DNA of 43,992 nucleotides, from positions 1 to 43,992 of IMG/VR virus record IMGVR_UViG_3300013458_000001. The stretch is one strand, 5' to 3'. Every line of letters begins with the position of its first letter. The stretch's first letter is position 1. Both the position numbers and the translations under genes were made by a program. This stretch comes from a virus. Below, one piece after another: positions 962 to 38,559 of this stretch. The notes below the pieces were generated by a model. The model did not search any database and had not been told where the DNA came from. It saw nothing but the letters and a program-made list of their open reading frames with translations.

Positions 962-1401
962 GTGTTGGAGATTTAAGCGAAGGCGACATAATTAGAATGT
1001 ATGAACTTAATGGTGTGGAGGTTACAGCAAAGGTTAAAGATGTTTATCATTTAGTCCATTCAAGTCTTGGTATTGATGAATGGGTTGCTGATGTAAAAGC
1101 AATTGACAGGAGGACTTGGACTATTGATGATAATTACGTTTTTTACTCATTACCTGATGAAAATGAAGAAATCAAAAAGACGTTAGATGACAAGGTTAGC
1201 CACCCAACACATTATACGTATGGAGATATAGAAGTTATAGACTTCATAGAGCAGGTTACTAAAGATTACAAACCAGAGTTAGCATTTGCGATTGGTAACG
1301 CAATCAAGTATATAAGTCGAGCTAATCGTAAGAACGGTAAAGAAGATTTAGACAAGGCGCGTTGGTATCTAAACAGAGCATTTGAGAAGTGGGAGGGCTA
1401 A
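958..1401 (+). CDS. DUF3310-like phage protein (147 aa)
   Basis: The C-terminal segment HPTHYTYGDIEVIDFIE...AIGNAIKYISRANRKNGKEDLDKARWYL resembles the DUF3310 signature. Recognised by eye only. Confidence 0.7.
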   Translation: MSVGDLSEGDIIRMYELNGVEVTAKVKDVYHLVHSSLGIDEWVADVKAIDRRTWTIDDNYVFYSLPDENEEIKKTLDDKVSHPTHYTYGDIEVIDFIEQVTKDYKPELAFAIGNAIKYISRANRKNGKEDLDKARWYLNRAFEKWEG

Positions 1402-1403
1402 TT

Positions 1404-2084
1404 ATGGCGTACATGTACGAACCATTCACTCACACAGTGACTAAGACAGAACTATCTCATCTGCACAACATTACAGGTATTCCTCTCAATACACTGTGGT
1501 ACCAAAAAGAGCGTGGCACATATAACGATAAGTTGAAGTGTTTCTTCACCGACACTATGCCGAGAGTGAATAAGAAACAGGCGTTTAACGAAAGAGTTTT
1601 AGCAAAAGATGAAATTTGGAAGTATAGCGACAAGTATGATCTATACGTAAGTAACTTAGGCAGAATGAAAAGACCTGATGGAAAATACAAGTTTGCGAAT
1701 GGATGTAACGGTATTTCTACAGTTATTTATAAGAATAAGAAGTATCGTGCAGCAGATATTGTATATGAAACATTTATCGGTAATTTGAGAAATGGATTAC
1801 ATGCATATCCGAAAGATAGTAAGTACAACAACCTTACGGCAGATAACCTATTTCAATCTACATTGCAAAAATATAGAGTGTATCGCAGAAATAAAGGTGT
1901 ATCTAAGCCAGTATATCTTGTCGATAATAACAACCAGATTGTCGAAGAATTCGCAAGTACAGTAGAAGCTCAAAAATTATTATTCATAGATAGACGCAAC
2001 ATCGCAAGAAAGTGTAACCGTAAACACGTAAGTGACGGATTGATGTATATGTGGGCAGACGAATATGAGGAATTGAACGCATGA
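1404..2084 (+). CDS. Free-standing HNH homing-endonuclease-like protein (NUMOD4-like + HNH_3-like + C-terminal DNA-binding module)
   Basis: Motifs: EIWKYSDKYDLYVSNLGRMKR (NUMOD4-like); LHAYPKDSKYNNLTADNL (HNH_3-like H...NN...N); C-terminal KPVYLVDNNNQIVEEFASTVEAQKLL. ATG at 1404 follows the SD gggagg. The track ORF begins at 1389. Confidence 0.7.
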   Translation: MAYMYEPFTHTVTKTELSHLHNITGIPLNTLWYQKERGTYNDKLKCFFTDTMPRVNKKQAFNERVLAKDEIWKYSDKYDLYVSNLGRMKRPDGKYKFANGCNGISTVIYKNKKYRAADIVYETFIGNLRNGLHAYPKDSKYNNLTADNLFQSTLQKYRVYRRNKGVSKPVYLVDNNNQIVEEFASTVEAQKLLFIDRRNIARKCNRKHVSDGLMYMWADEYEELNA

Positions 2085-2906: not shown

Positions 2907-3114
2907 GTGGACAACACTAAAAGACGAATTGACGCAAAAGTATATTAAACTTCGTGGCAAAAACAATAAAATTTCAAACGATTTACCAACTGTTGAGATA
3001 GCAAATATATTGGTTGGCAGGAAAGTTTTAAAACAACAATTACAACGCATGGACGAACTCGACGGGACACATGAGTTTCAAAATTTATTAAGTGATTTGG
3101 AGCGTGGGGAATAA
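2893..3114 (+). CDS. Hypothetical protein (73 aa)
   Basis: ATG at 2893 is preceded by the SD ggagg. The track ORF starts at 2875. Confidence 0.6.
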   Translation: MKDNKWTTLKDELTQKYIKLRGKNNKISNDLPTVEIANILVGRKVLKQQLQRMDELDGTHEFQNLLSDLERGE

Positions 3115-3275
3115 TGAAAAAATTTAACGTTGAAATTGTATATACAGGTATGCTTAATGAAACCGTTGAGGCTGAAAGTGTAGAAGAAGCTGAATTTGAA
3201 GCTCGAGATATCGCGGCGATGGAACTGTCAGTGGATATTGATGAATACACTATATCAGTACAGGAGGACGAGTAA
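3114..3275 (+). CDS. Hypothetical acidic protein (53 aa, below ORF-track cutoff)
   Basis: Hand translation gives MKKFNVEIVYTGMLNETVEAESVEEAEFEARDIAAMELSVDIDEYTISVQEDE. It has a taATG overlap upstream and its stop abuts the dut ATG. Confidence 0.55.
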   Translation: MKKFNVEIVYTGMLNETVEAESVEEAEFEARDIAAMELSVDIDEYTISVQEDE

Positions 3276-6222: not shown

Positions 6223-6657
6223 ATGACGAAACTGAACCTTAAACAACAAACATTTGTTGATGAGTACATTAAGACAGGTACTGCTTATCAATCGGCAATC
6301 AAGGCTGGTTATAGTGAGAAATACGCAAAATCAAGTAGTCATAAATTGTTGGAAAATGTGGGAATAAAAGCAGAAATAGACAAACGAATGGAAAAACTAA
6401 AAAAAGATGCAATTGCAGACCAAGACGAAATACTTCAATATCTTACTTCTGTATTACGTGGAGAGGTAACAGACCAAGAACTCATACCGATTGGAATTGG
6501 TAGAGGAGAAATGGAAGTAGAGTCTTTGGAAAAACGATCAGATACTAACGCTAGAACGAAAGCTGCAGAATTATTAGGCAAACGATATATGATGTGGACA
6601 GACAAGCAACAAATCGAAACAACTGCGACGGTACAGTTCAATGACGATATCGATTAA
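6223..6657 (+). CDS. terS: Terminase small subunit (Terminase_2-type)
   Basis: The N-terminus LKQQTFVDEYIKTGTAYQSAIKAGYSEKYAKSSSHKLL is typical of Terminase_2 TerS. SD aggtgg. Located directly upstream of terL. Confidence 0.85.
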   Translation: MTKLNLKQQTFVDEYIKTGTAYQSAIKAGYSEKYAKSSSHKLLENVGIKAEIDKRMEKLKKDAIADQDEILQYLTSVLRGEVTDQELIPIGIGRGEMEVESLEKRSDTNARTKAAELLGKRYMMWTDKQQIETTATVQFNDDID

Positions 6658-7906
6658 TCTATCCGAACTGTTACCTAAACACTTTCATGGACTGTGGAAA
6701 GCTACTAAGGACAAAGAAAAACTTAACATAGTAGCTAAAGGTGGACGTGGTAGTGGTAAGTCCTCTGATATATCTATCATCATTACACAGTTAATCATGC
6801 GCTATCCTATGAATGCAGTTGTAGTACGTAAGACGGATAATACATTAGCTACATCAGTATTTGAACAAATCAAGTGGGCGATAGAAGAACAAAAGGTGTC
6901 ACACCTGTTCAAAGTTAAAGTGTCGCCAATGGAAATCACATATGTACCTAGAGGGAATCGGATTATCTTTAGAGGGGCACAGAACCCTGAACGATTAAAG
7001 TCGTTAAAAGATAGTCGGTTCCCTTTTTCTATCATGTGGATAGAGGAGTTAGCAGAGTTCAAGACAGAAGATGAAGTTACGACAATTACTAACTCTATGC
7101 TACGTGGAGAACTAGACGACGGATTGTTCTACAAGTTTTTCTTTAGTTATAACCCGCCTAAGAGAAAACAATCGTGGGTTAATAAAAAATACGAAACCTC
7201 ATTCCAACCAGATAACACATTCGTACATCATTCAACGTACTTAGATAACCCTTTTATCTCTAAGCAATTTATACAAGAGGCAGAGAGTGCGAAAGAACGT
7301 AACGAACAACGTTATCGTTGGGAATATATGGGCGAAGCCATTGGTAGTGGCGTTGTACCGTTTAATAACTTACAAATAGAAACGATACCCCAAGAAATGA
7401 TTGACGGTTTTGACAACATAAGGAATGGCCTTGACTTTGGATATGCTGACGATCCGTTAGCGTTTGTCCGTTGGCATTATGATAAAAAGAAACGGGTTAT
7501 TTACGCTATCGATGAATATTACGGTGTTCAGATTAGTAATAGGCAATATGCAAACGAAATGTGGAAAAGAAAATATCAGTCAGACGACATTTACGCTGAC
7601 CATGCCGAACCTAAATCAATAGCTGAATTAAAGCGAGAACATGGCATGAAAAAAGTAAGACCGGTTAAAAAAGGGCCTGATAGCAGAGAATATGGTGAAC
7701 AATGGTTATCTGATTTAGAAGCTATCATAATAGATCCAAAACGTACACCGAATATCGCAAGAGAATTTGAAAACATAGATTATCAAACTGATAAAGATGG
7801 AGATATTATTCCTAAATTAGAAGATAAAAACGACCATACAATTGACGCCACTAGATACGCCCTAGAGCGTGACATGAGGCAGAATAAACTTAGCATACTT
7901 ACGTAA
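6641..7906 (+). CDS. terL: Terminase large subunit (PBSX/Terminase_3-like, headful type)
   Basis: Walker A GGRGSGKS, 421 aa, overlaps the end of terS. Confidence 0.9.
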   Translation: MTISINLSELLPKHFHGLWKATKDKEKLNIVAKGGRGSGKSSDISIIITQLIMRYPMNAVVVRKTDNTLATSVFEQIKWAIEEQKVSHLFKVKVSPMEITYVPRGNRIIFRGAQNPERLKSLKDSRFPFSIMWIEELAEFKTEDEVTTITNSMLRGELDDGLFYKFFFSYNPPKRKQSWVNKKYETSFQPDNTFVHHSTYLDNPFISKQFIQEAESAKERNEQRYRWEYMGEAIGSGVVPFNNLQIETIPQEMIDGFDNIRNGLDFGYADDPLAFVRWHYDKKKRVIYAIDEYYGVQISNRQYANEMWKRKYQSDDIYADHAEPKSIAELKREHGMKKVRPVKKGPDSREYGEQWLSDLEAIIIDPKRTPNIAREFENIDYQTDKDGDIIPKLEDKNDHTIDATRYALERDMRQNKLSILT

Positions 7907-25889: not shown

Positions 25890-25905
25890 CTTGTGGTTTT
25901 TATTA
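25873..25905 (+). terminator. Intrinsic terminator overlapping the end of the XkdX-like gene
   Basis: aaccacaag-ttaaatag-cttgtggtt followed by tttattat. Confidence 0.7.
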
Positions 25906-25925
25906 TAAGTGAAGTAGGTGTTTAT

Positions 25926-26225
25926 ATGACAGAAAGTAGCCAAAGAGGAGATTATGAACGACGTATAAAAAGATTGGAAGATAACGACGAAAAAATCTTC
26001 AACTCTTTGGAACAGATAAAAGATGGACAGCACAATCAAAATTTAATTAATCAAAAAATGAATTTCACTTTGGACTCTATCAACAGAGAGAGGGAATTAG
26101 AATCTCAAAACAAAAAAGAAAATCAAAAAAATATCAAAGACATTAAAATGTGGGTTTTAGGATTGGTTGGTACTATAGCTGGTTCTTTAATCGTAGCAGT
26201 ATTAAGAATGTTTTTTGGTGTTTAA
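25926..26225 (+). CDS. XhlA-like membrane protein (99 aa)
   Basis: N-terminal coiled coil (RIKRLEDNDEKIFNSLEQIK) plus a single C-terminal TM segment (MWVLGLVGTIAGSLIVAVLRMFFGV). Confidence 0.65.
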   Translation: MTESSQRGDYERRIKRLEDNDEKIFNSLEQIKDGQHNQNLINQKMNFTLDSINRERELESQNKKENQKNIKDIKMWVLGLVGTIAGSLIVAVLRMFFGV

Positions 26226-26303: not shown

Positions 26304-26313
26304 TTAAGAAACA

Positions 26314-26340
26314 AAGCCGGCTTTTTAGTCGGCTTTTTAT
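26314..26340 (+). terminator. Intrinsic terminator after the XhlA/micropeptide pair
   Basis: aagccg...cggctt stem followed by ttttt. Confidence 0.65.
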
Positions 26341-26363
26341 TATGCCAGAAATGAGGTGGATAT

Positions 26364-26477
26364 ATGGGATTACCTAGCCCTAAAAGAAGAAAACCCACTG
26401 CTTCGGAAGTTGCAGCATGGGCAAAGAGTAGAATTGGAAAAAGATTAGATGTCGATGGTTATTATGGAGCACAGTGT
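26364..26477 (+). CDS. Virion-associated peptidoglycan hydrolase, exon 1 (CHAP N-terminus, 38 codons)
   Basis: MGLPSPKRRKPTASEVAAWAKSRIGKRLDVDGYYGAQC ends at the CHAP catalytic Cys codon. SD gaggtgg. Confidence 0.8.
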
Positions 26478-26723
26478 TAAATCTAGCACCTTTGATGAGC
26501 AATCATCATAGCAAACTCCTCTAATTCATGGAAACCCTAAACAAGTTATGTTGTAGGCAATCATGAGCGAAGCCTATAAATAGGAACGTGCAACGACTAG
26601 TCGAAAGACGTACACTCAAGCGAGTGGAAACGGGGGGCAACCTTAATGGTTGATGATATAGTCTGAACATTCATAGAAATATGAAGAAGGTGACAAGTAG
26701 CGATTGTCATCGTAACAAAATTG
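26478..26723 (+). mobile_element. Group I intron (IA-like, ORF-less, 246 nt)
   Basis: The 5' exon ends in U paired to G (gtgt/gcac). The intron ends in G. Foldable elements: P2 26493-26508 (GCAA loop), P3 26516-21/26632-37, P4 26525-31/26561-67 with A-rich J4/5, P6 26573-84, P7 26595-99/26659-63, P7.1 26600-09 (GAAA), P7.2 26613-26, P8 26638-52, P9 26670-85 (GAAA), P9.1 26691-709. Confidence 0.8.
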
Positions 26724-28520
26724 TGGGATTTACCTAACTATATTTTTAAAAGATATTGGGGTTTTTTTACAACAGGAAATGCGATTGCTATGGCATGGTA
26801 CAGATACCCTAAAGGCTTCAAATTCTATAGGAACACTAGAAACTTTGTTCCGAAACCTGGAGATATGGCTGTATGGGGAAAGGGTTCCTTTAATAACGGT
26901 GTTGGGCATACTGCTGTTGTCATAGGTCCATCTACCAAAAGTTACTTTACTAGTGTGGATCAAAATTGGATTGGTGCAAATAGTTATACAGGCTCACCTG
27001 GTGCTAAAATTAAACATAGTTATAACGGTATAAGTGGGTTCGTCAGACCACCTTATCATCCGGAAACTAAGAAACCGTCTAAACCAAGTAGTACACCGTC
27101 CAAACCTTCTAATGACAACACTCCTAAAAACACAAAAGAACAAACGAAACCTATAACTAAAGAAATTACCAAAGTTTCCTATACATCATTCGCATACGAT
27201 TTAGACGATGATTTAGAATACATTTATCATTATATGGTTGAAGGTCAAAAGTTGATAGGGAAAGTAAAAGGTATATATATCAAAGAGAGTACACATATGC
27301 GTTCTGTTGAAGAATTATATTTACAACGTAATAAATATGTAAATGAAGATGAATATCCTCATGTATATATAGACCGAGAGCGTGTATGGACGCCTAGACC
27401 TGATTCAGAAGAAGCACCAGAACATCCAGGTTGGCTTGTTATGGAAGTTTGTGGAGGACAAACAGAAAGCAAACGGCAATTCATGCTCAATCAAATCAGA
27501 GCGTTAATCTACGGCGTTTGGTTGCTAAGTTGGAGTAAGGTAAAACTATCTGAATCATCAATCAAAGCAGACCCTAATATATGGCGTTCTATGAAAGATT
27601 TAATTAATTACGACTTAATCAAAAACGGTATTCCTGATGAAAGTAAATATAAAGAAGTTGAAAAGAAAATAATAGGTTTATATTTAAAAAGAGATAAATT
27701 ACTCACAGAAACGATTACCACAACAACTACAAAGACAACCATAAAGATTAAACCTAAAACTTCGGTCGATAACCCTGAACAGAACGACAAACCGACAGAC
27801 AAAAAAAGCAAAACAACAAACAGAACTTCGAATAAACCTCGTGTAGTTGTAGAGAAAAGTAAATATACTTTCCAACAAGCACTGAACGCTCAAATGGCAT
27901 ACGGTAAACCTCAAAAATCTTATAGTTGGGGTTGGGGAAATGCATCTAGGTCTCAAACGAGTAAGTATATGAACCCTAACACTATATGGAATAGTTCAGT
28001 ACAAAGGTATCAAATGTTAGATCTTGGTAAGTATCAAGGTATATCAGTAAGTAAGTTGAATAAGATACTTAAAGGTAAAGGTACTCTATCCGGACAAGGT
28101 AAAGCTTTCGCAGACGGTTGTAAGAAATACAACGTAAATGAAATATACTTAATTGCTCACGCTTTCTTAGAAAGTGGATATGGCCGTAGTAACTACGCAA
28201 GTGGACGTTATGGTATATACAATTACTTTGGTATTGCAGCATACGACAATGATCCTAACGCTTCTATAGGATACGCTAGACGTCAAGGCTGGACGAGTCC
28301 ACGTAACGGTATTATAGGTGGCGCTAAGTTCGTTAGAAAACAATTCTTTAATCAAGGAAAGAATACTTTATATCGAATGCGTTGGAACCCTAAAAATCCA
28401 GGTCGTATGCAGTACGCTACTGCTATTGAGTGGTGTAATTTCCAAGCAACAACAATAAACAGTTTATACAAAAAAGTAGGATTAAAAGGTTTGTACTACA
28501 TTCGCGATAAATATAGATAA
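26724..28520 (+). CDS. Virion-associated peptidoglycan hydrolase, exon 2 (rest of CHAP, linker, GH73/LYZ2 glucosaminidase)
   Basis: WDLPNY...GDMAVW...GHTAVV continues the CHAP domain. C-terminal GQGKAFADGCKKYNVNEIYLIAHAFLESGYG is glucosaminidase-like. No credible independent start (the track uses TTG at 26721). Confidence 0.85.
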   Translation, partial: WDLPNYIFKRYWGFFTTGNAIAMAWYRYPKGFKFYRNTRNFVPKPGDMAVWGKGSFNNGVGHTAVVIGPSTKSYFTSVDQNWIGANSYTGSPGAKIKHSYNGISGFVRPPYHPETKKPSKPSSTPSKPSNDNTPKNTKEQTKPITKEITKVSYTSFAYDLDDDLEYIYHYMVEGQKLIGKVKGIYIKESTHMRSVEELYLQRNKYVNEDEYPHVYIDRERVWTPRPDSEEAPEHPGWLVMEVCGGQTESKRQFMLNQIRALIYGVWLLSWSKVKLSESSIKADPNIWRSMKDLINYDLIKNGIPDESKYKEVEKKIIGLYLKRDKLLTETITTTTTKTTIKIKPKTSVDNPEQNDKPTDKKSKTTNRTSNKPRVVVEKSKYTFQQALNAQMAYGKPQKSYSWGWGNASRSQTSKYMNPNTIWNSSVQRYQMLDLGKYQGISVSKLNKILKGKGTLSGQGKAFADGCKKYNVNEIYLIAHAFLESGYGRSNYASGRYGIYNYFGIAAYDNDPNASIGYARRQGWTSPRNGIIGGAKFVRKQFFNQGKNTLYRMRWNPKNPGRMQYATAIEWCNFQATTINSLYKKVGLKGLYYIRDKYR

Positions 28521-28560: not shown

Positions 28561-28573
28561 AAGAGGTGTGTAT

Positions 28574-29749
28574 ATGATAATCAAAATGACAGATGTAGAA
28601 ACGCATATTAACCCTAGAAATGTTGATATAGGGGATATTGGTAGTCGTTTCTATACAGAAGATGAGAATACTGCATTTATCAGAATTAGAATTAATTATA
28701 ATGACAGTCCGGTTGATTTAACTAAAACAGATATGAAACCTAAACTCGATTTATTTATGGAAGATGGTTCTGTATTCATCGATGAAACAATCGCCGTATT
28801 AATTCCTGAAAGTGGTTTGATCCAATACGATATACCATCTAACGTGATTAAACACATTGGAAAAGTAAACTGTAAGTTATTCATGGATAGTCCCGAACAT
28901 TCCATTCACGTCGCTAACTTCTCGTTTGGTATTGTTGATAGTGGTGTAGAAAAGGTTGTATCTAAAGAAATCAGTCTAAATTTAGTTAAAGATACAGTTA
29001 AACAAATCATGTCTGAAGATTTAACAGAATTACTAGATACCGAATTCAAAGATAAATTAACTGGAGATTTACAATACTACCTTTCTTCACACAACGAAGA
29101 ATTCAAAGGTCCCAAAGGCGACGAAGGGCCTCAAGGCGAACAAGGGCCGCAAGGGTTACAAGGAGAAGTAGGACCACAAGGAGCGCAAGGTATACCGGGC
29201 GAAAAAGGAGATGTTGGACCTCAAGGTTTGCAAGGACCTAAAGGAGATACTGGAGAAAAAGGAAAACCTTTTGAATATAAAGATTTTACAACAGAGCAAT
29301 TAAATAATTTAAAAGGTCCAAAAGGTGACCCATTTAAATATACTGACTTTACACAATCACAATTAGACGCATTGAAAGGACCTAAAGGTGATGTAAATAT
29401 CTCTGATACAGGGTGGATACCACTTACACTTTTAAATAATATACAGAATTCAACACAACCTAATTTCAGTTTTGGTCAAGTAACTAGTTATAGAATTGTA
29501 ACCATAGGTACAATAAAAAGTGTAACCGTAAGGGGAGCAATTACAAATGTTAGTGGGGTTAATGGTACTTTAAGTAAACTACCAATGGAGATAATAGGTA
29601 ATAATATACCTGTTTTCTCAGTAAGAGTTTCTACTTTAAGTAAGAATGTATTAATATTTCCAACAAACGATGGGAGTTTGAAATATTATGCAAGTACATC
29701 AATGTCTACTGATGATATAGTTCAATTTTCAGATACTTGGTATATTTAA
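28574..29749 (+). CDS. Collagen-like tail fibre with a BppU_N-like N-terminus
   Basis: The N-terminus [19 protein letters not shown] is paralogous to the protein at 23872. It has 18 G-X-Y triplets and FxYxDFTxxQLxxLKGPKGD repeats. ATG at 28574 follows the SD aagagg. Confidence 0.8.
29108..29269 (+). repeat. Collagen-like G-X-Y coding repeat (18 triplets)
   Basis: [54 protein letters not shown]. Confidence 0.9.
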
Positions 29750-30296: not shown

Positions 30297-30566
30297 ATGA
30301 GAACAGATGTAGGTTCAATTGTAAGAACAATCGTATTTATTTTAGCTTGGGTTAACCAATTTTTAGCTACTAAAAACATTTCGCCTATTCCAGTAGATGA
30401 AGTGACTATCAGCTCTATTATCACTGGTGCAGTGTCTTTATGGACTTGGTGGAAAAATAATAATTTCTCTCACGCAGCACAAAAAGGACAACAAAAATTG
30501 CATGAAGTTAAAGCAGGTACAGAAAACACAAATGGTAAAGCACCAATTGGAGGTAATGATTTATGA
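30297..30566 (+). CDS. Holin (89 aa)
   Basis: Two TM segments (IVRTIVFILAWVNQFL and SSIITGAVSLWTWW), a charged C-terminus, and an ATGA overlap with the endolysin gene. Confidence 0.8.
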   Translation: MRTDVGSIVRTIVFILAWVNQFLATKNISPIPVDEVTISSIITGAVSLWTWWKNNNFSHAAQKGQQKLHEVKAGTENTNGKAPIGGNDL

Positions 30567-31945
30567 CAAATAAAACTAGAAGTCAAGCGCATGCTTATTT
30601 AGACAGGTTAAAAGGTTATTGGTGGGATTTCGACGGTGTTTATGGCGCACAATGTTTTGATTTAGCCAATCAATATTGGTACTACGTAACAGGTCATACT
30701 TTAAGTGGTATGTACGCTAAAGATATACCTTTTGTTAATGATTTTAACGGATACGCGAATGTTGTAAAAAATTATAACTCTTATATTCCTAAAAAAGGTA
30801 CTTTAGTTGTTTTTCCTTACGAATATGGTAACGGATGTGGTCATGTTGCTATTATAGAAAGTGCTACTCAAAATTATTTCTATAGTTTGGATCAAAATTG
30901 GTATGGCGGGGCAAGAAATAATCCGCCAGAGGTTGCTCAAACAATATACCACGAATATCACCCTGATATGTATTTTGTAGAACCTCTGTATTCTAAAGAA
31001 ACAAAAGTAAGTAAAATTAAAGCAAAAACAACTAAACCTAAACCTGTAAAAAAAGTTAAAAAAAGAAAAGTGATGATCGTTGCTGGTCATGGGTATAATG
31101 ATCCTGGTGCTATTGGTAATGGTTATAACGAACGTGATTTTATAAGAAAAAACATTGTTGATAATGTATCAAAATATTTGAAAGACGCAGGCCATACTGT
31201 TGGTATATATGGAAAAAAACAAGATATGTATCAAGATACAGCTTACGGAGTGAGAGTAGGTAATCACAGAGATTATGGCTTATATTGGGTAAAATCTCAA
31301 GGGTACGATACCGTTATTGAATTTCATTTAGATAGTGCAGGTCCTAAGGCTACAGGTGGACATACTATAATACCTGCTGGTTATCCTGCTAATATAACGG
31401 ATAAAAACATCCAAGAAGCATTAAAGCAAAGCGTCGGTGCTATAAGAGGAATAACTCAACGTAACGACTTATTAAACTGTAACGTTGCTAATGATATTGG
31501 TATAGATTATAGACTTGTTGAATTGGGGTTCATTACTTCATATAAAGATATGAAGTATATTAATGAAAATATAAAACCTTTCACAAAGTCGATAGCAAGC
31601 GCTATTAATGGCAAGCCAATTGGAGGAACAAGTGCAGGTAAAGTTAAAAGTGTAAAAAAAACATGGGATTGGAAAGGTAGATTTTATCCGAACACAACAA
31701 TTAAAGTAAGAAAAAAACCAAACGGCGAAATTGTAGAAAAAGGTTCTTGGTTGTACGGAAAAAACGATTGGGTAGATATTGTTCAATTATACAAAGACAC
31801 TAAGAAAAAATTATGGTGGGGTAAATTTAAATACCCAACTAACCCTAGTTCCGGTTATTTTTATTGCGCTTTGGGTGAAATCACTGACAAACAAGAGCGT
31901 ATAAAAAAAGAGAAGAAATTATACGGAAAGATAAAGTGGAAGTAA
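30563..31945 (+). CDS. Endolysin: CHAP + N-acetylmuramoyl-L-alanine amidase (Amidase_3-like) + SH3b-like
   Basis: DGVYGAQCFDL (CHAP Cys), GHVAII, VMIVAGHGYNDPGAIGNGYNERDF (amidase_3-like), and a C-terminal SH3b-like WDWKGRFYP...WW segment. Confidence 0.9.
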   Translation: MTNKTRSQAHAYLDRLKGYWWDFDGVYGAQCFDLANQYWYYVTGHTLSGMYAKDIPFVNDFNGYANVVKNYNSYIPKKGTLVVFPYEYGNGCGHVAIIESATQNYFYSLDQNWYGGARNNPPEVAQTIYHEYHPDMYFVEPLYSKETKVSKIKAKTTKPKPVKKVKKRKVMIVAGHGYNDPGAIGNGYNERDFIRKNIVDNVSKYLKDAGHTVGIYGKKQDMYQDTAYGVRVGNHRDYGLYWVKSQGYDTVIEFHLDSAGPKATGGHTIIPAGYPANITDKNIQEALKQSVGAIRGITQRNDLLNCNVANDIGIDYRLVELGFITSYKDMKYINENIKPFTKSIASAINGKPIGGTSAGKVKSVKKTWDWKGRFYPNTTIKVRKKPNGEIVEKGSWLYGKNDWVDIVQLYKDTKKKLWWGKFKYPTNPSSGYFYCALGEITDKQERIKKEKKLYGKIKWK

Positions 31946-33143: not shown

Positions 33144-34523
33144 TTAATAAAATTCTATATCGTTTATTTTAATAGAATGCCTGTTTTTAAGTTTTACATA
33201 ATCTATGTCGATAGACTTAATAGCCATCTTAATGAAATCTGCTTTATCTTCCAATGAGAATATTTCCCATGATTCCAATAATGCATTTTTAAATTTTTTT
33301 ATCTTATCTATATCTAGTGATTTTCTAGGTACTAATTCTTTTTGTTTTTCATATTCTGCGATTGTTTCGTCTGTTTCTTTGATTAATCCAAATAATTCTT
33401 CTTCTTTCATTAACCCTTTAGCATATAATTTATGATACCTTTTACGTTGTTCCATAATTTTGTCTATATCAATAGTAACAACATCATCTTTTTGTTTTGT
33501 CTTTACTTCGTATTTTTCTAAGTCTAGTTTAGATAGATAATCACGAAACACTCTCAATGCTTCATTCTCTGAAAAACCGAAACTTTGTTTTTTAGCTTTA
33601 CATGTGTTGCAATAATACGTTTTATAGGTAACATAACCTTTCTTTCTCTTTCTTGTCACTGTATTCAGTGTTAATGTGCCACCACATCTCGGACAAATAA
33701 ATTTACCTCTGAACACTGATACGTGACTGACTATTTTTGTATTGATTCGTTCTTCTAGCCTTTCTTTTATTTGTTGATACATTTCTTCGGTAATAATAGG
33801 CTCGTGAGAGTTTTCTATAAATACATCTCCCCAAGTATAATGACCTCTTGTTATAGGACTCCTTAGTGCTCTTGTTATAGTTCTATCTTCCCACTTTTTA
33901 CCATTAGGAGGTGGTATATCTGAATCGTTTAATTTTCTAGCTATAGCTTTTGAACTATTACCTTTCATCACTTCGTCGTATGCCCATAAAACTACTTTTT
34001 TATAATCATTAGGAATGTAAGTGTTATCTACACGATCATAATAAAAGGGTGGTGGTGTGAGTATCATGCCTTGTTTAATCGCTGCGCGTTTACCCATCAT
34101 AACACGCTCTCTAATGGTTTCTCTTTCCCACTCTGCCATAGCACCAACTAATGTAACAAATAGTCTACCCATAGCTGTAGATGTATCATAAACTTCAGTA
34201 GCACTTCTGAATGCTACGTTATTCTGTTCGAATACCTCTAATAAATCAAGTAGATCACGTACATTACGTGTAAGCCTATCTAACTTATACACTAAAACTA
34301 AATCAAACCGTTTAATATCATTCATCATACGTTGTAATTCTGGTCGTTCACGTTTAGCACCAGAGAAACCAGCGTCAATAAATACGTCTGATACACTCCA
34401 GTCATTTATTTCACAAAATGATTTAAGCTTCCTTTCTTGTTCTTCAATAGAATAACCGTGCTCTTTTTGTTCTAATGTACTGACCTGACACGAACGTAAA
34501 TAGCTACGTTCATAATTCATCAC
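33144..34523 (-). CDS. int: Large serine recombinase (integrase). The N-terminal catalytic motif region is displaced by a 5-bp tandem duplication, so it may be non-functional.
   Basis: Resolvase-domain motifs (VSTLEQKEHGYSIEEQ, DRLTRN), recombinase and zinc-ribbon regions (CPRCGG...CNTC), and a C-terminal coiled coil. The well-spaced ATG at 34512 reads MNVAIYVRV and then shifts out of frame. Confidence 0.8.
   Translation of the reverse strand: MMNYERSYLRSCQVSTLEQKEHGYSIEEQERKLKSFCEINDWSVSDVFIDAGFSGAKRERPELQRMMNDIKRFDLVLVYKLDRLTRNVRDLLDLLEVFEQNNVAFRSATEVYDTSTAMGRLFVTLVGAMAEWERETIRERVMMGKRAAIKQGMILTPPPFYYDRVDNTYIPNDYKKVVLWAYDEVMKGNSSKAIARKLNDSDIPPPNGKKWEDRTITRALRSPITRGHYTWGDVFIENSHEPIITEEMYQQIKERLEERINTKIVSHVSVFRGKFICPRCGGTLTLNTVTRKRKKGYVTYKTYYCNTCKAKKQSFGFSENEALRVFRDYLSKLDLEKYEVKTKQKDDVVTIDIDKIMEQRKRYHKLYAKGLMKEEELFGLIKETDETIAEYEKQKELVPRKSLDIDKIKKFKNALLESWEIFSLEDKADFIKMAIKSIDIDYVKLKNRHSIKINDIEFY
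34480..34489 (-). repeat. Tandem 5-bp duplication GTCAG|GTCAG (coding strand) in int codons 9-12
   Basis: The + strand reads ctgac ctgac. Removing one unit restores ATG AAC GTA GCT ATT TAC GTT CGT GTC AGT ACA = MNVAIYVRVST. Confidence 0.8.
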
Positions 34524-38063: not shown

Positions 38064-38348
38064 TTGAAACATAAACTTTTAAGAATAGCCAATGATTTAA
38101 ATAAATTAATTTTGCATAGTGATGAAGAAGTGGAAGCAAATTTTAAAAAAAATGATGACGGGAAAGTTGCCATTTCCATTTGGCACTACTCTCAAAAATA
38201 CGAAAATAACTGTAATTCTCTAAAGTTCTACGAAATTCATACAGATGAAGAATTACAAAGAAAATTTGAATTAGCAAAAGAAGTCATTGCAGGGGAGTGT
38301 TTGATTGATGAAAGAAACAACCAAAGTCGAGTATCGCATACAAGATGA
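38064..38348 (+). CDS. Hypothetical protein (94 aa)
   Basis: ORF track. TTG start after the SD ggagg. Confidence 0.6.
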   Translation: MKHKLLRIANDLNKLILHSDEEVEANFKKNDDGKVAISIWHYSQKYENNCNSLKFYEIHTDEELQRKFELAKEVIAGECLIDERNNQSRVSHTR

Positions 38349-38559
38349 ACATCATGGTTGGTGGCTTACTAACAAGCCAGCTTCACCAGAATATGCAAAT
38401 TACAACGCTATGCGTAGTAGAGCTGCAGTCATTAGCGGACTAGATGATATTGATATTAACTGGGATAAACATGATATCGAAATAACAACTTACAAAATAC
38501 AAGAAACACGTAAAACAGTGAAAATGAAAGACTTGGAGGAGGTCAAAGCTGATGAGTGA
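38305..38559 (+). CDS. Hypothetical protein (about 83 aa)
   Basis: ORF track. ATG at 38308 is the likely start, after the SD ggggag. Confidence 0.6.
   Translation: MMKETTKVEYRIQDEHHGWWLTNKPASPEYANYNAMRSRAAVISGLDDIDINWDKHDIEITTYKIQETRKTVKMKDLEEVKADE

What the first reader, a model, noticed from the sequence alone, without database searches (positions are those of the whole stretch)
26478..26723. ORF-less group I intron splits the virion-associated CHAP/glucosaminidase hydrolase just after its catalytic Cys codon
Seen in sequence:
- A 38-codon ORF with a good SD ends ...DGYYGAQC and then hits TAA. 246 nt later the same frame continues WDLPNY...GHTAVV. Together these form one canonical CHAP domain, followed by a GH73-like domain (636 aa in total).
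- The intervening 246 nt has stops in all frames.
- The 5' exon ends in U, which can pair as U-G with gcac at 26486-89 (P1). The last intron base is G.
- aaatc at 26479-83 can pair with gattt of exon 2 (P10).
- The interior folds by hand into P2, P3, P4/P5 with A-rich junctions, P6, P7, P7.1, P7.2, P8, P9 and P9.1. Three hairpins are capped by GNRA tetraloops.

The extra P7.1/P7.2 elements are the hallmark of subgroup IA, which is the phage type. The intron has no homing-endonuclease ORF, and it sits in a structural lysin rather than the endolysin.
Basis: partly seen in the sequence, partly recalled or inferred. Interest (0 to 1): 0.8.

Follow-up and report, generated by a model that had tools for sequence, protein, structure and literature searches.

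The report
Known self-splicing intron in phage hydrolase
A 246-base self-splicing RNA (group I intron) really does interrupt the tail-associated cell-wall hydrolase gene of this Staphylococcus epidermidis phage just after its catalytic cysteine codon, but the same intron at the same site is already annotated, and reported to splice in vivo, in the close relative phage PH15.

Summary
Window 26478-26723 is a 246-nt, ORF-less group I intron. It scores 95.3 bits against Rfam RF00028 (gathering score 50).

It splits a 636-aa CHAP + glucosaminidase hydrolase between the catalytic Cys38 codon (TGT) and Trp39. Intron-less alleles such as CNPH82 read CAGTGT|TGGGAT and fix the boundaries exactly. The 5' exon ends in U26477, which pairs with G26486, and the intron ends in G26723.

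On a 10-sequence alignment 32 of 73 pairs show compensatory changes, including pairs in P7.1 and P7.2. A canonical 4-bp P10 next to P1 fits better.

The window is a Rockefellervirus. Its intron is 98.8% identical to the one in PH15 gene ph24. That gene is deposited as a joined CDS, and a 2020 paper citing Daniel et al. 2007 reports in vivo splicing. All three differences from PH15 are structure-neutral.

The intron is 73% identical to Twort orf142-I2, whose crystal structure has been solved. The same lineage sits at the same QC|WDLPNY site in much more divergent hydrolase genes: introns are 85-92% identical while exons are about 60%. This suggests horizontal spread without a homing endonuclease of its own.

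The parts
26313..26336 (+). Terminator-like hairpin plus T-run between the upstream DUF2951 gene and the hydrolase gene
   Evidence: Consensus scan: 10-bp stem, 5 G-C pairs; 1 found against 0.2 expected. Function not tested.
26353..26359 (+). Shine-Dalgarno-like GAGGTGG, 4 nt before the ATG of exon 1
   Evidence: Read directly from the sequence.
26364..26477 (+). Exon 1 of the tail-associated hydrolase: 38 codons ending in the catalytic Cys38 codon TGT (26475-77)
   Evidence: ORF list. Cys38 aligns with the QC.DL motif of solved CHAP lysins. Junction fixed by intron-less alleles.
26478..26723 (+). Group I (IA2-like) intron, 246 nt, no ORF. It starts with an in-frame TAA and ends with the terminal G26723.
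   Evidence: Rfam RF00028 at 95.3 bits; exact absence from CNPH82, phiIPLA7, vB_48, PG-2021_91 and vB_459; covariation; 98.8% identical to the PH15 ph24 intron.
26474..26489 (+). P1: exon GUGU plus intron UA pairs with intron UAGCAC. The splice-site wobble is U26477-G26486.
   Evidence: Rfam alignment and MFE fold. The U-G pair is present in all 7 hydrolase-gene introns (helix 1). The three myovirus paralogues, with different exons, count as unpaired in this alignment register; read by eye, their guide base changes A to U and they pair in a shifted register.
26490..26511 (+). P2 hairpin with GCAA tetraloop (26499-502)
   Evidence: helix 2, 4 of 8 pairs with compensatory changes, 98.8% paired.
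26516..26521 (+). P3 5' strand, pairing with 26632-26637
   Evidence: helix 3: 3 of 6 pairs with compensatory changes, 100% paired.
26526..26566 (+). P4 (26526-31 with 26561-66) enclosing P5/P5a (26536-43 with 26549-57)
   Evidence: P4 invariant; P5 has 3 pairs with compensatory changes.
26567..26591 (+). P6 and P6a hairpin
   Evidence: in P6a (helix 7) all 4 pairs show compensatory changes.
26595..26599 (+). P7 5' strand GACUA, pairing with UAGUC at 26659-26663 (pseudoknot; in group I introns generally this helix holds the guanosine-binding site)
   Evidence: Matches the Rfam consensus. All 5 pairs are invariant in 10 sequences (helix 8), so there is no covariation evidence either way.
26600..26609 (+). 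P7.1 hairpin, GUC-GAAA-GAC
   Evidence: helix 9: all 3 pairs with compensatory changes, 100% paired.
26613..26626 (+). P7.2 hairpin, CACUC-AAGC-GAGUG
   Evidence: helix 10: 3 of 5 pairs with compensatory changes, 100% paired.
26632..26637 (+). P3 3' strand
   Evidence: helix 3.
26638..26652 (+). P8 hairpin
   Evidence: helix 11: 2 pairs with compensatory changes, 100% paired.
26659..26663 (+). P7 3' strand UAGUC
   Evidence: helix 8.
26670..26685 (+). P9 hairpin with GAAA tetraloop
   Evidence: helix 12: 4 of 6 pairs with compensatory changes.
26689..26711 (+). P9.1 hairpin (8 bp, 7-nt loop)
   Evidence: helix 13: 4 of 8 pairs with compensatory changes.
26482..26485 (+). Probable P10 guide (UCUA), pairing with the first four bases of exon 2 (UGGG, 26724-27)
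   Evidence: 90% paired, covariation score 0.65, compensatory changes in paralogues with different exons. The sample is small.
26724..28520 (+). Exon 2: the rest of the CHAP domain (His100), a linker and the glucosaminidase (GH73) domain; stop codon at 28518-20

Best explanation
Window 26478-26723 is an ORF-less, self-splicing group I intron of the phage IA2 type. It interrupts the tail-associated peptidoglycan hydrolase gene (CHAP + GH73) of a temperate S. epidermidis siphovirus of the genus Rockefellervirus, between the catalytic Cys38 codon and Trp39.

Inferred mechanism, from established group I chemistry:
1. The pre-mRNA folds into the P1-P9.1 architecture.
2. An exogenous guanosine bound in P7 attacks the phosphodiester after U26477, which is held in P1 by the U-G wobble with G26486.
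3. The freed 3' OH of exon 1 then attacks after the terminal G26723, with exon 2 positioned by a short P10.
4. This ligates CAGUGU to UGGGAU and restores a 636-aa ORF.

Unspliced RNA would yield only a 38-aa peptide, because the intron begins with an in-frame TAA. Splicing is therefore obligatory to place the catalytic Cys and His in one polypeptide.

What is shown here: the sequence, the boundaries, the structure with covariation, and homology. What is not shown here: splicing itself, which is reported for the 98.8%-identical PH15 intron. What is inferred: mobility. The intron has no homing endonuclease. It probably spreads among co-infecting phages and prophages by homologous recombination at the highly conserved QC|WDLPNY site, or by an endonuclease acting in trans.
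For: - Rfam RF00028 at 95.3 bits, full-length model match.
- Intron-less alleles define a precise 246-nt insertion that restores Q-C-W-D. The CNPH82 locus has no Rfam hit.
- The unconstrained MFE fold gives all the hairpins.
- On a MAFFT alignment of 10 homologues, 95.6% of cells are paired against 34-47% in slid controls. 32 of 73 pairs have compensatory changes, and 0 of 500 shuffles reach the observed values.
- The spliced product has complete CHAP and Glucosaminidase domains.
- Cys38 and His100 align with the corresponding conserved residues of solved CHAP lysins.
- PH15 ph24 is deposited as a 2-piece join of 2148 nt, which equals 1902 + 246.
- PH15's two introns are reported as spliced in vivo (PMC7235722 citing Daniel et al. 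2007).
- The three differences from the PH15 intron fall in L2 (GCAA vs GUAA, both GNRA), in P3 (U-G vs U-A) and in L8.
- The intron is 73% identical over nt 36-246 to Twort orf142-I2.
- For mobility: introns are 85-92% identical between phages whose hydrolase exons are only 59-65% identical.
Against: - Splicing of this particular copy has not been observed. I could not read the primary PH15 paper and rely on a secondary citation.
- P4 and P7 are invariant, so covariation says nothing about them.
- The covariation alignment has only 10 related sequences, so the shuffle control overstates significance. The slid controls are the fairer comparison.
- The evidence for mobility is indirect. Strong purifying selection on a ribozyme could also keep the intron more conserved than the exons.
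- The mosaic exon patch shared with PH15 is not strictly linked to intron presence.
Confidence: 0.95

Rival explanations
1. The gene is simply broken. The 246 nt would be a decayed insertion that no longer splices, and the phage would make either no hydrolase or an N-terminally truncated one from an internal start, lacking the catalytic Cys.
For: Several GenBank records annotate the region as two separate CDSs (BE01, BE21, phiIPLA5, IME1318_01, IME1323_01, StB12). The ORF finder reports a TTG start at 26721.
Against: The ribozyme core is intact and scores well above threshold. All helices are kept by compensatory changes across lineages, which implies ongoing selection for folding. Exon 1 remains an intact in-frame ORF with a Shine-Dalgarno sequence in every intron-plus phage. 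The nearly identical PH15 intron is reported to splice in vivo. The differences from PH15 are structure-neutral.
Confidence: 0.02
2. The intron splices, but it is retained because it regulates the hydrolase. It might delay or gate production of the virion hydrolase, for example through GTP or Mg2+ levels or coupling to translation, rather than being a neutral selfish element.
For: It sits at the very start of the gene (codon 38), so unspliced RNA yields only a 38-aa peptide. The intron recurs at this same site in several phage lineages.
Against: Close relatives with 97-100% identical flanking genes lack the intron altogether and are viable phages. The intron is therefore dispensable. No riboswitch or other regulatory RNA family is detected. 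Insertion at conserved catalytic motifs is the usual signature of selfish homing elements.
Confidence: 0.07
3. The intron is actively mobile through a homing endonuclease encoded elsewhere in the phage, in a co-resident prophage or in the host (collaborative or trans homing), rather than spreading passively by recombination.
For: It has no ORF of its own yet occupies the identical site in hydrolase genes whose exons are only about 60% identical, while the introns are 85-92% identical. The window and PH15 share a roughly 100-nt exon patch around the intron that resembles a co-conversion tract. Collaborative homing of ORF-less introns is documented in other phages (review PMC3984707).
Against: No endonuclease-like gene lies next to the hydrolase. 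Four other intron-plus phages have exon flanks identical to intron-minus alleles, so the patch is not intron-linked. No cleavage data exist.
Confidence: 0.2

Closest known systems
Group I intron in gene ph24 (hydrolase) of Staphylococcus phage PH15 (DQ834250; Daniel, Bonnen & Fischetti 2007)
   Same: Same host gene, same insertion site (CAGTGT|TGGGAT) and same length (246 nt); 98.8% identical. Annotated as a joined CDS. Reported as spliced in vivo (PMC7235722).
   Different: Three substitutions, all structure-neutral. The window phage lacks PH15's second intron, the endonuclease-containing one in the large terminase gene. Exon 2 beyond about +65 nt resembles CNPH82 rather than PH15.
Predicted non-coding intron in the hyd gene of S. 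epidermidis phage E72 (PMC8125051), also present in BE01, phiIPLA5 and BE21
   Same: Same site and length; 97.1% identical.
   Different: The intron begins with TGA instead of TAA, and there are 8 substitutions (7 in loops or junctions, one in P3 that keeps the pair). The flanking exons are of the intron-minus (CNPH82) type.
Twort orf142 introns, in particular orf142-I2, the ribozyme with a solved crystal structure. The IA2 subgroup label is from my own knowledge of Golden et al. 2005.
   Same: 73% identity over intron nt 36-246. The size is similar (about 250 nt) and it has no ORF. By eye, the Twort sequence shows the same series of peripheral hairpins. Related tail-tube introns of other Twort-like phages were included in the covariation set.
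   Different: The host gene differs (the myovirus tail-tube gene, with three introns in tandem). The exons differ, and so therefore do the P1/P10 guide sequences.
[quoted passage not shown]
   Same: An ORF-less intron proposed within the CHAP-domain tail hydrolase of a staphylococcal siphovirus.
   Different: That insert is 349 bp. As described, it sits upstream of the catalytic Cys (the downstream part holds a complete CHAP domain) and resembles Twort nrdE and phage 812 recA introns. I did not compare it directly here.

Membership tests
Group I catalytic intron (Rfam RF00028) | Covariance-model score at or above the curated gathering score | tested here: met
   95.3 bits against 50; E 1.8e-23; model positions 1-253 of 253.
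Group I catalytic intron (Rfam RF00028) | Conserved core helices P3-P8, including the P3/P7 pseudoknot | tested here: met
   P3, P5, P6a and P8 have compensatory changes. P4 and P7 form standard pairs in all 10 sequences but are invariant.
Group I catalytic intron (Rfam RF00028) | 5' splice site after a U that forms a U-G wobble in P1 with the internal guide sequence | tested here: met
   U26477-G26486. The wobble is present in all 7 hydrolase-gene introns.
Group I catalytic intron (Rfam RF00028) | The last intron nucleotide is G | tested here: met
   G26723, fixed by comparison with intron-less alleles and invariant in the 10-sequence alignment.
Group I catalytic intron (Rfam RF00028) | Precise excision restores a continuous, conserved reading frame | tested here: met
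   Removing 26478-26723 gives ...YYGAQC-WDLPNY..., colinear with the uninterrupted CNPH82 cn25 and four other intron-less alleles.
Group I catalytic intron (Rfam RF00028) | Guanosine-dependent self-splicing | not testable with these tools
   In vivo splicing is reported for the 98.8%-identical PH15 intron (PMC7235722 citing Daniel et al. 2007). I could not read the primary paper.
Subgroup IA (IA2-like, phage type) | Extra hairpins P7.1 and P7.2 inserted between the 5' strand of P7 and the 3' strand of P3 | tested here: met
   26600-09 and 26613-26 lie between P7 (26595-99) and P3' (26632-37). They appear as an insertion relative to the Rfam consensus. All 3 pairs of P7.1 and 3 of 5 pairs of P7.2 show compensatory changes.
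Subgroup IA (IA2-like, phage type) | Sequence homology to an established IA2 member | tested here: met
   73% identity over 211 nt to Twort orf142-I2. The IA2 label of that intron is from my own knowledge and was not checked in a held paper.
Mobile (homing) group I intron | Encodes a homing endonuclease | tested here: not met
   246 nt, with 10, 8 and 4 stops in the forward frames. Only spurious 37-49-aa ORFs lie on the minus strand. No endonuclease domain was found in the neighbouring genes tested.
CHAP-domain peptidoglycan hydrolase (PF05257) with GH73 glucosaminidase (PF01832) | Domain profile matches above the curated cut-offs, with the catalytic Cys and His present | tested here: met
   CHAP 37.2 bits (cut-off 26) and Glucosaminidase 46.8 bits (cut-off 30.2) on the spliced protein. 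Cys38 and His100 align with the conserved Cys and His of solved CHAP lysins (6IST and LytN alignments shown; LysK 4CSH is among the hits).
Virion-associated (tail) peptidoglycan hydrolase | Located in the tail module and separate from the holin-endolysin cassette; physically present in virions | tested here: inconclusive
   The synteny requirement is met. The gene lies between tail genes and a BppU/collagen tail-fibre gene, with a separate 460-aa endolysin ORF downstream. Homologues are annotated as tail-associated cell-wall hydrolases. Presence in the virion cannot be tested here.

The most novel reading that the evidence does not exclude
This ORF-less intron lineage may be an actively homing element that specifically targets the catalytic QC|WDLPNY motif of CHAP-domain tail hydrolases across staphylococcal phage genera. 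It is seen in Rockefellervirus, in Azeredovirinae and in a S. petrasii prophage. Under this reading it would be driven by an unidentified endonuclease acting in trans, or by reverse splicing. The roughly 100-nt exon patch shared by the window and PH15 would be a co-conversion scar.
Probability: 0.15. Interest if true: 0.4.

Novelty: already known. Interest (0 to 1): 0.12.

Why it matters
Scientifically it adds little. It is one more copy of a documented phage intron.

It does have practical value for annotation. At least six public phage records (BE01, BE21, phiIPLA5, StB12, IME1318_01, IME1323_01) split or truncate this hydrolase. This loses the exon that carries the catalytic cysteine. Anyone cloning these tail hydrolases as antibacterial enzymes from genomic DNA needs the spliced sequence.

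The comparison of highly conserved introns with much more divergent host genes also gives a small, clean example of an endonuclease-less intron recurring at one catalytic motif. That could be followed up experimentally.

Tried and rejected
- I tried to read the primary PH15 paper (Daniel et al. 2007) by PubMed id and by PMC id. It is not held, so the in vivo splicing claim rests on a secondary citation.
It is 68% paired and no better than the -1 slid control, so I rejected it in favour of a P10 abutting P1.
- I tested whether a divergent exon patch around the intron is a co-conversion tract linked to intron presence. The window and PH15 share the patch. However, E72, BE01, phiIPLA5 and BE21 are intron-plus with intron-minus-type flanks. 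Strict linkage is therefore rejected, and the patch remains only suggestive.
- Synonymous-codon identity in the first 24 codons of exon 2 against distant intron-plus phages is only mildly and inconsistently elevated: 50-81% against 42-58% further downstream. This is too little data to call.
- I looked for a second intron or other structured RNA in the window at a permissive threshold and found none.
- I looked for a homing-endonuclease domain in neighbouring ORFs and in the homologue of PH15's 'putative HNH endonuclease' (window 1389-2084). There was no Pfam hit.
- The scan of species-representative bacterial genomes, using a degenerate 48-nt pattern for this intron lineage, found a single prophage, in S. 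petrasii. That collection says little about how widespread the intron is.

Full report
**Observation.**
- A 38-codon ORF (26364-26477) follows a GAGGTGG Shine-Dalgarno-like motif. It ends ...DGYYGAQC and runs into TAA at 26478-80.
- The same frame resumes at 26724 with WDLPNY...GHTAVV and continues to 28520.
- Joined, the two parts give 636 aa. Pfam CHAP covers residues 31-119 and Glucosaminidase/GH73 covers 498-619, both above the curated cut-offs.
- The intervening 246 nt have 10, 8 and 4 stop codons in the three forward frames and only spurious short ORFs on the other strand.

**Is it a group I intron?** Yes.
- Rfam RF00028 matches 26467-26686 at 95.3 bits (gathering score 50, E 1.8e-23) over the whole model. 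It is the only hit in the window at gathering score. At E<=1 the only other match is a chance-level one at E 0.91.
- The model ends after P9. The true 3' end lies 37 nt further on and is fixed by comparison. Uninterrupted alleles in CNPH82, phiIPLA7, vB_48, PG-2021_91 and vB_459 read CAGTGT|TGGGAT.
- Of the two registers compatible with a 246-nt insertion, only 26478-26723 gives a 5' exon ending in U and an intron ending in G.
- The intron-less CNPH82 locus has no Rfam hit.

**Structure.**
- An unconstrained minimum-free-energy fold of 26466-26735 recovers P1, P2, P3, P4, P5/5a, P6/6a, P7.1, P7.2, P8, P9 and P9.1 without guidance (pairs listed). P7 (GACUA 26595-99 with UAGUC 26659-63) is a pseudoknot and matches the Rfam consensus.
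- I aligned the window's intron with nine homologues using MAFFT, which uses no structure information. Five come from the same site in other S. epidermidis phages, one from the same site in a phage of each of S. haemolyticus, S. hominis and S. caprae... in total six from the same hydrolase site (PH15, E72m5, IME1318_01, StB12, IME1323_01, HOB 14.1.R1) and three are paralogues from tail-tube genes of Twort-like myoviruses.
- I then counted pairs. 95.6% of cells form standard pairs, against 34-47% when the 3' partners are slid by 1-3 columns. 32 of 73 pairs show changes on both sides. No shuffle out of 500 reaches the observed values.
- Every peripheral helix carries compensatory changes. This includes P7.1 (3 of 3 pairs) and P7.2 (3 of 5 pairs), the elements that place the intron in subgroup IA.
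- P4 and P7 are invariant, so covariation is silent on them.
A canonical P10 directly abutting P1 (UCUA 26482-85 with UGGG 26724-27) is 90% paired and shows compensatory changes in the paralogues whose exons differ. I prefer it, with the caveat that the sample is small.

**Position in the protein.**
- The intron is in phase 0, between the TGT codon of Cys38 and the TGG codon of Trp39.
- Cys38 (YGAQCWDL) aligns with the conserved QC.DL motif of solved CHAP lysins, and His100 aligns with their conserved His (the 6IST and LytN alignments are shown, and LysK 4CSH is among the hits). That this Cys is the catalytic nucleophile is established for LysK, from my own knowledge.
- The catalytic Cys is therefore in exon 1 and the His in exon 2, so an active enzyme requires splicing.
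- The gene lies in the tail module, upstream of a BppU/collagen tail-fibre gene. It is separate from the 460-aa endolysin ORF at 30563-31945.

**What the window is, and what is already known.**
- The window is a temperate S. epidermidis siphovirus of the genus Rockefellervirus. It is about 93% identical to E72, PH15, phiIPLA7 and CNPH82 over about 80% of a 24-kb query. It carries a serine recombinase.
- The intron is 98.8% identical to one at the same site in PH15.
- PH15 gene ph24 is deposited as a two-piece joined CDS of 2148 nt, which equals 1902 + 246.
- A 2020 paper states that PH15 contains two introns and that in vivo splicing was shown for both, citing Daniel, Bonnen and Fischetti 2007 (PMC7235722). 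PH15 has exactly two joined CDSs, ph2 and ph24. I could not obtain the primary paper.
- The three differences between the window's intron and PH15's are in the L2 loop (GCAA vs GUAA, both GNRA), in a P3 pair (U-G vs U-A) and in the L8 loop. There is no reason to expect different behaviour.
- The finding is therefore real but already known.

**Relatives.**
- A sensitive blastn search finds matches in 529 phage records. Full-length relatives at about 77% identity lie in the tail-tube genes of Twort-like staphylococcal myoviruses.
- In phage Twort the region after the tail-sheath gene holds three group I introns. The window's intron is 73% identical over nt 36-246 to the second of them.
- By position and sequence that second intron is orf142-I2, the ribozyme whose crystal structure was solved (reviews PMC3984707 and PMC4275181).

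**Mobility (inference).**
- The same intron lineage occupies the identical QC|WDLPNY site in hydrolase genes of phages of S. haemolyticus, S. hominis and S. caprae, in the S. epidermidis phage HOB 14.1.R1, and in a S. petrasii prophage.
- Against three of these the introns are 85-88% identical while exon 1 is 59-65% identical and exon 2 beyond 72 nt is 59-61% identical. The S. petrasii intron is 92% identical.
- This favours horizontal spread of the intron among divergent genes at a highly conserved motif. Strong constraint on the ribozyme is an alternative explanation.
- The window and PH15 share a patch of roughly 100 nt (about -52 to +45 around the junction) that differs at about 22 positions from other Rockefellervirus alleles. 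It looks like a co-conversion tract.
- However, E72, BE01, phiIPLA5 and BE21 are intron-plus with intron-minus-type flanks. The patch is therefore not strictly intron-linked.
- No endonuclease gene lies in or beside the intron.

**Verdict.** The feature is a known intron, so interest is low. Its main practical value is for annotation. Several public records split or truncate this hydrolase and lose the exon encoding the catalytic cysteine.

Noticed in passing
window 6641-7906: The large terminase gene is uninterrupted (421 aa, with Terminase_3 and Terminase_3C domains). The PH15 homologue ph2 is split by an intron carrying a SegB-like homing endonuclease (ph3). This phage therefore has only one of PH15's two introns.
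   Followed up: yes
L003 (StB12, JN700520.2) 2521-2737 and 2992-3259: The S. hominis phage StB12 has two group I introns in the same tail hydrolase gene (Rfam 100.1 and 94.8 bits). The record annotates three separate 'peptidoglycan hydrolase' CDSs.
   Followed up: partly
L013 (BE01), L014 (phiIPLA5), L015 (BE21), L005 (IME1318_01), L006 (IME1323_01): These public records annotate the intron-containing hydrolase as two CDSs or omit exon 1. BE21 even has a 'hypothetical protein' called on the minus strand inside the intron. The exon carrying the catalytic Cys is lost from the main product.
   Followed up: partly
window about 26425-26770, compared with L001 and L002: There is a mosaic exon patch around the intron. 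Here the window matches PH15 at 98-100% but CNPH82 at only 80-88%. Beyond about +65 nt the window switches to 97-100% identity with CNPH82, while PH15 stays divergent to about +300. This indicates recombination breakpoints close to the intron.
   Followed up: partly
window 26313-26336: A terminator-like hairpin with a T-run lies between the DUF2951 gene (25893-26225) and the hydrolase gene. The hydrolase may therefore be transcribed separately or by read-through.
   Followed up: no
one search hit H32: Xanthomonas phage SU1 (OR842880.1) 38215-38356: A record named as a Xanthomonas phage matches the region upstream of and within exon 1 (window about 26313-26458) at 81.6%, under a 'lysin' annotation. 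This is unexpected for a Gram-negative host and may reflect mislabelling or contamination.
   Followed up: no
one search hits H34-H36: Vibrio phages D181 and D148, Bacillus phage 11143: The intron core (window about 26555-26672) matches phages of unrelated hosts at 83-88% over 58-115 nt. This shows how conserved the P6-P7-P3-P8 core of this intron class is.
   Followed up: no
L008 (phiSA_BS1) 1494-1745 and L011 (EW15) 1493-1748: These two myovirus introns align well with the others and keep the pairs. They were nevertheless not reported by the multi-locus Rfam gathering scan, although their near-relative in L010 scored 98 bits. Speed filters may be responsible.
   Followed up: no
window 28568-29749: The gene downstream of the hydrolase encodes a BppU_N domain plus collagen triple-helix repeats, a tail fibre or upper baseplate protein. 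In the PH15 record this position holds ph25 and ph26, annotated as hypothetical proteins of about 170 aa each, so the module after the hydrolase differs between these phages.
   Followed up: no
window 33144-34523 (minus strand): A large serine recombinase (Resolvase + Recombinase + zinc-ribbon domains) marks this as a temperate phage or prophage.
   Followed up: no
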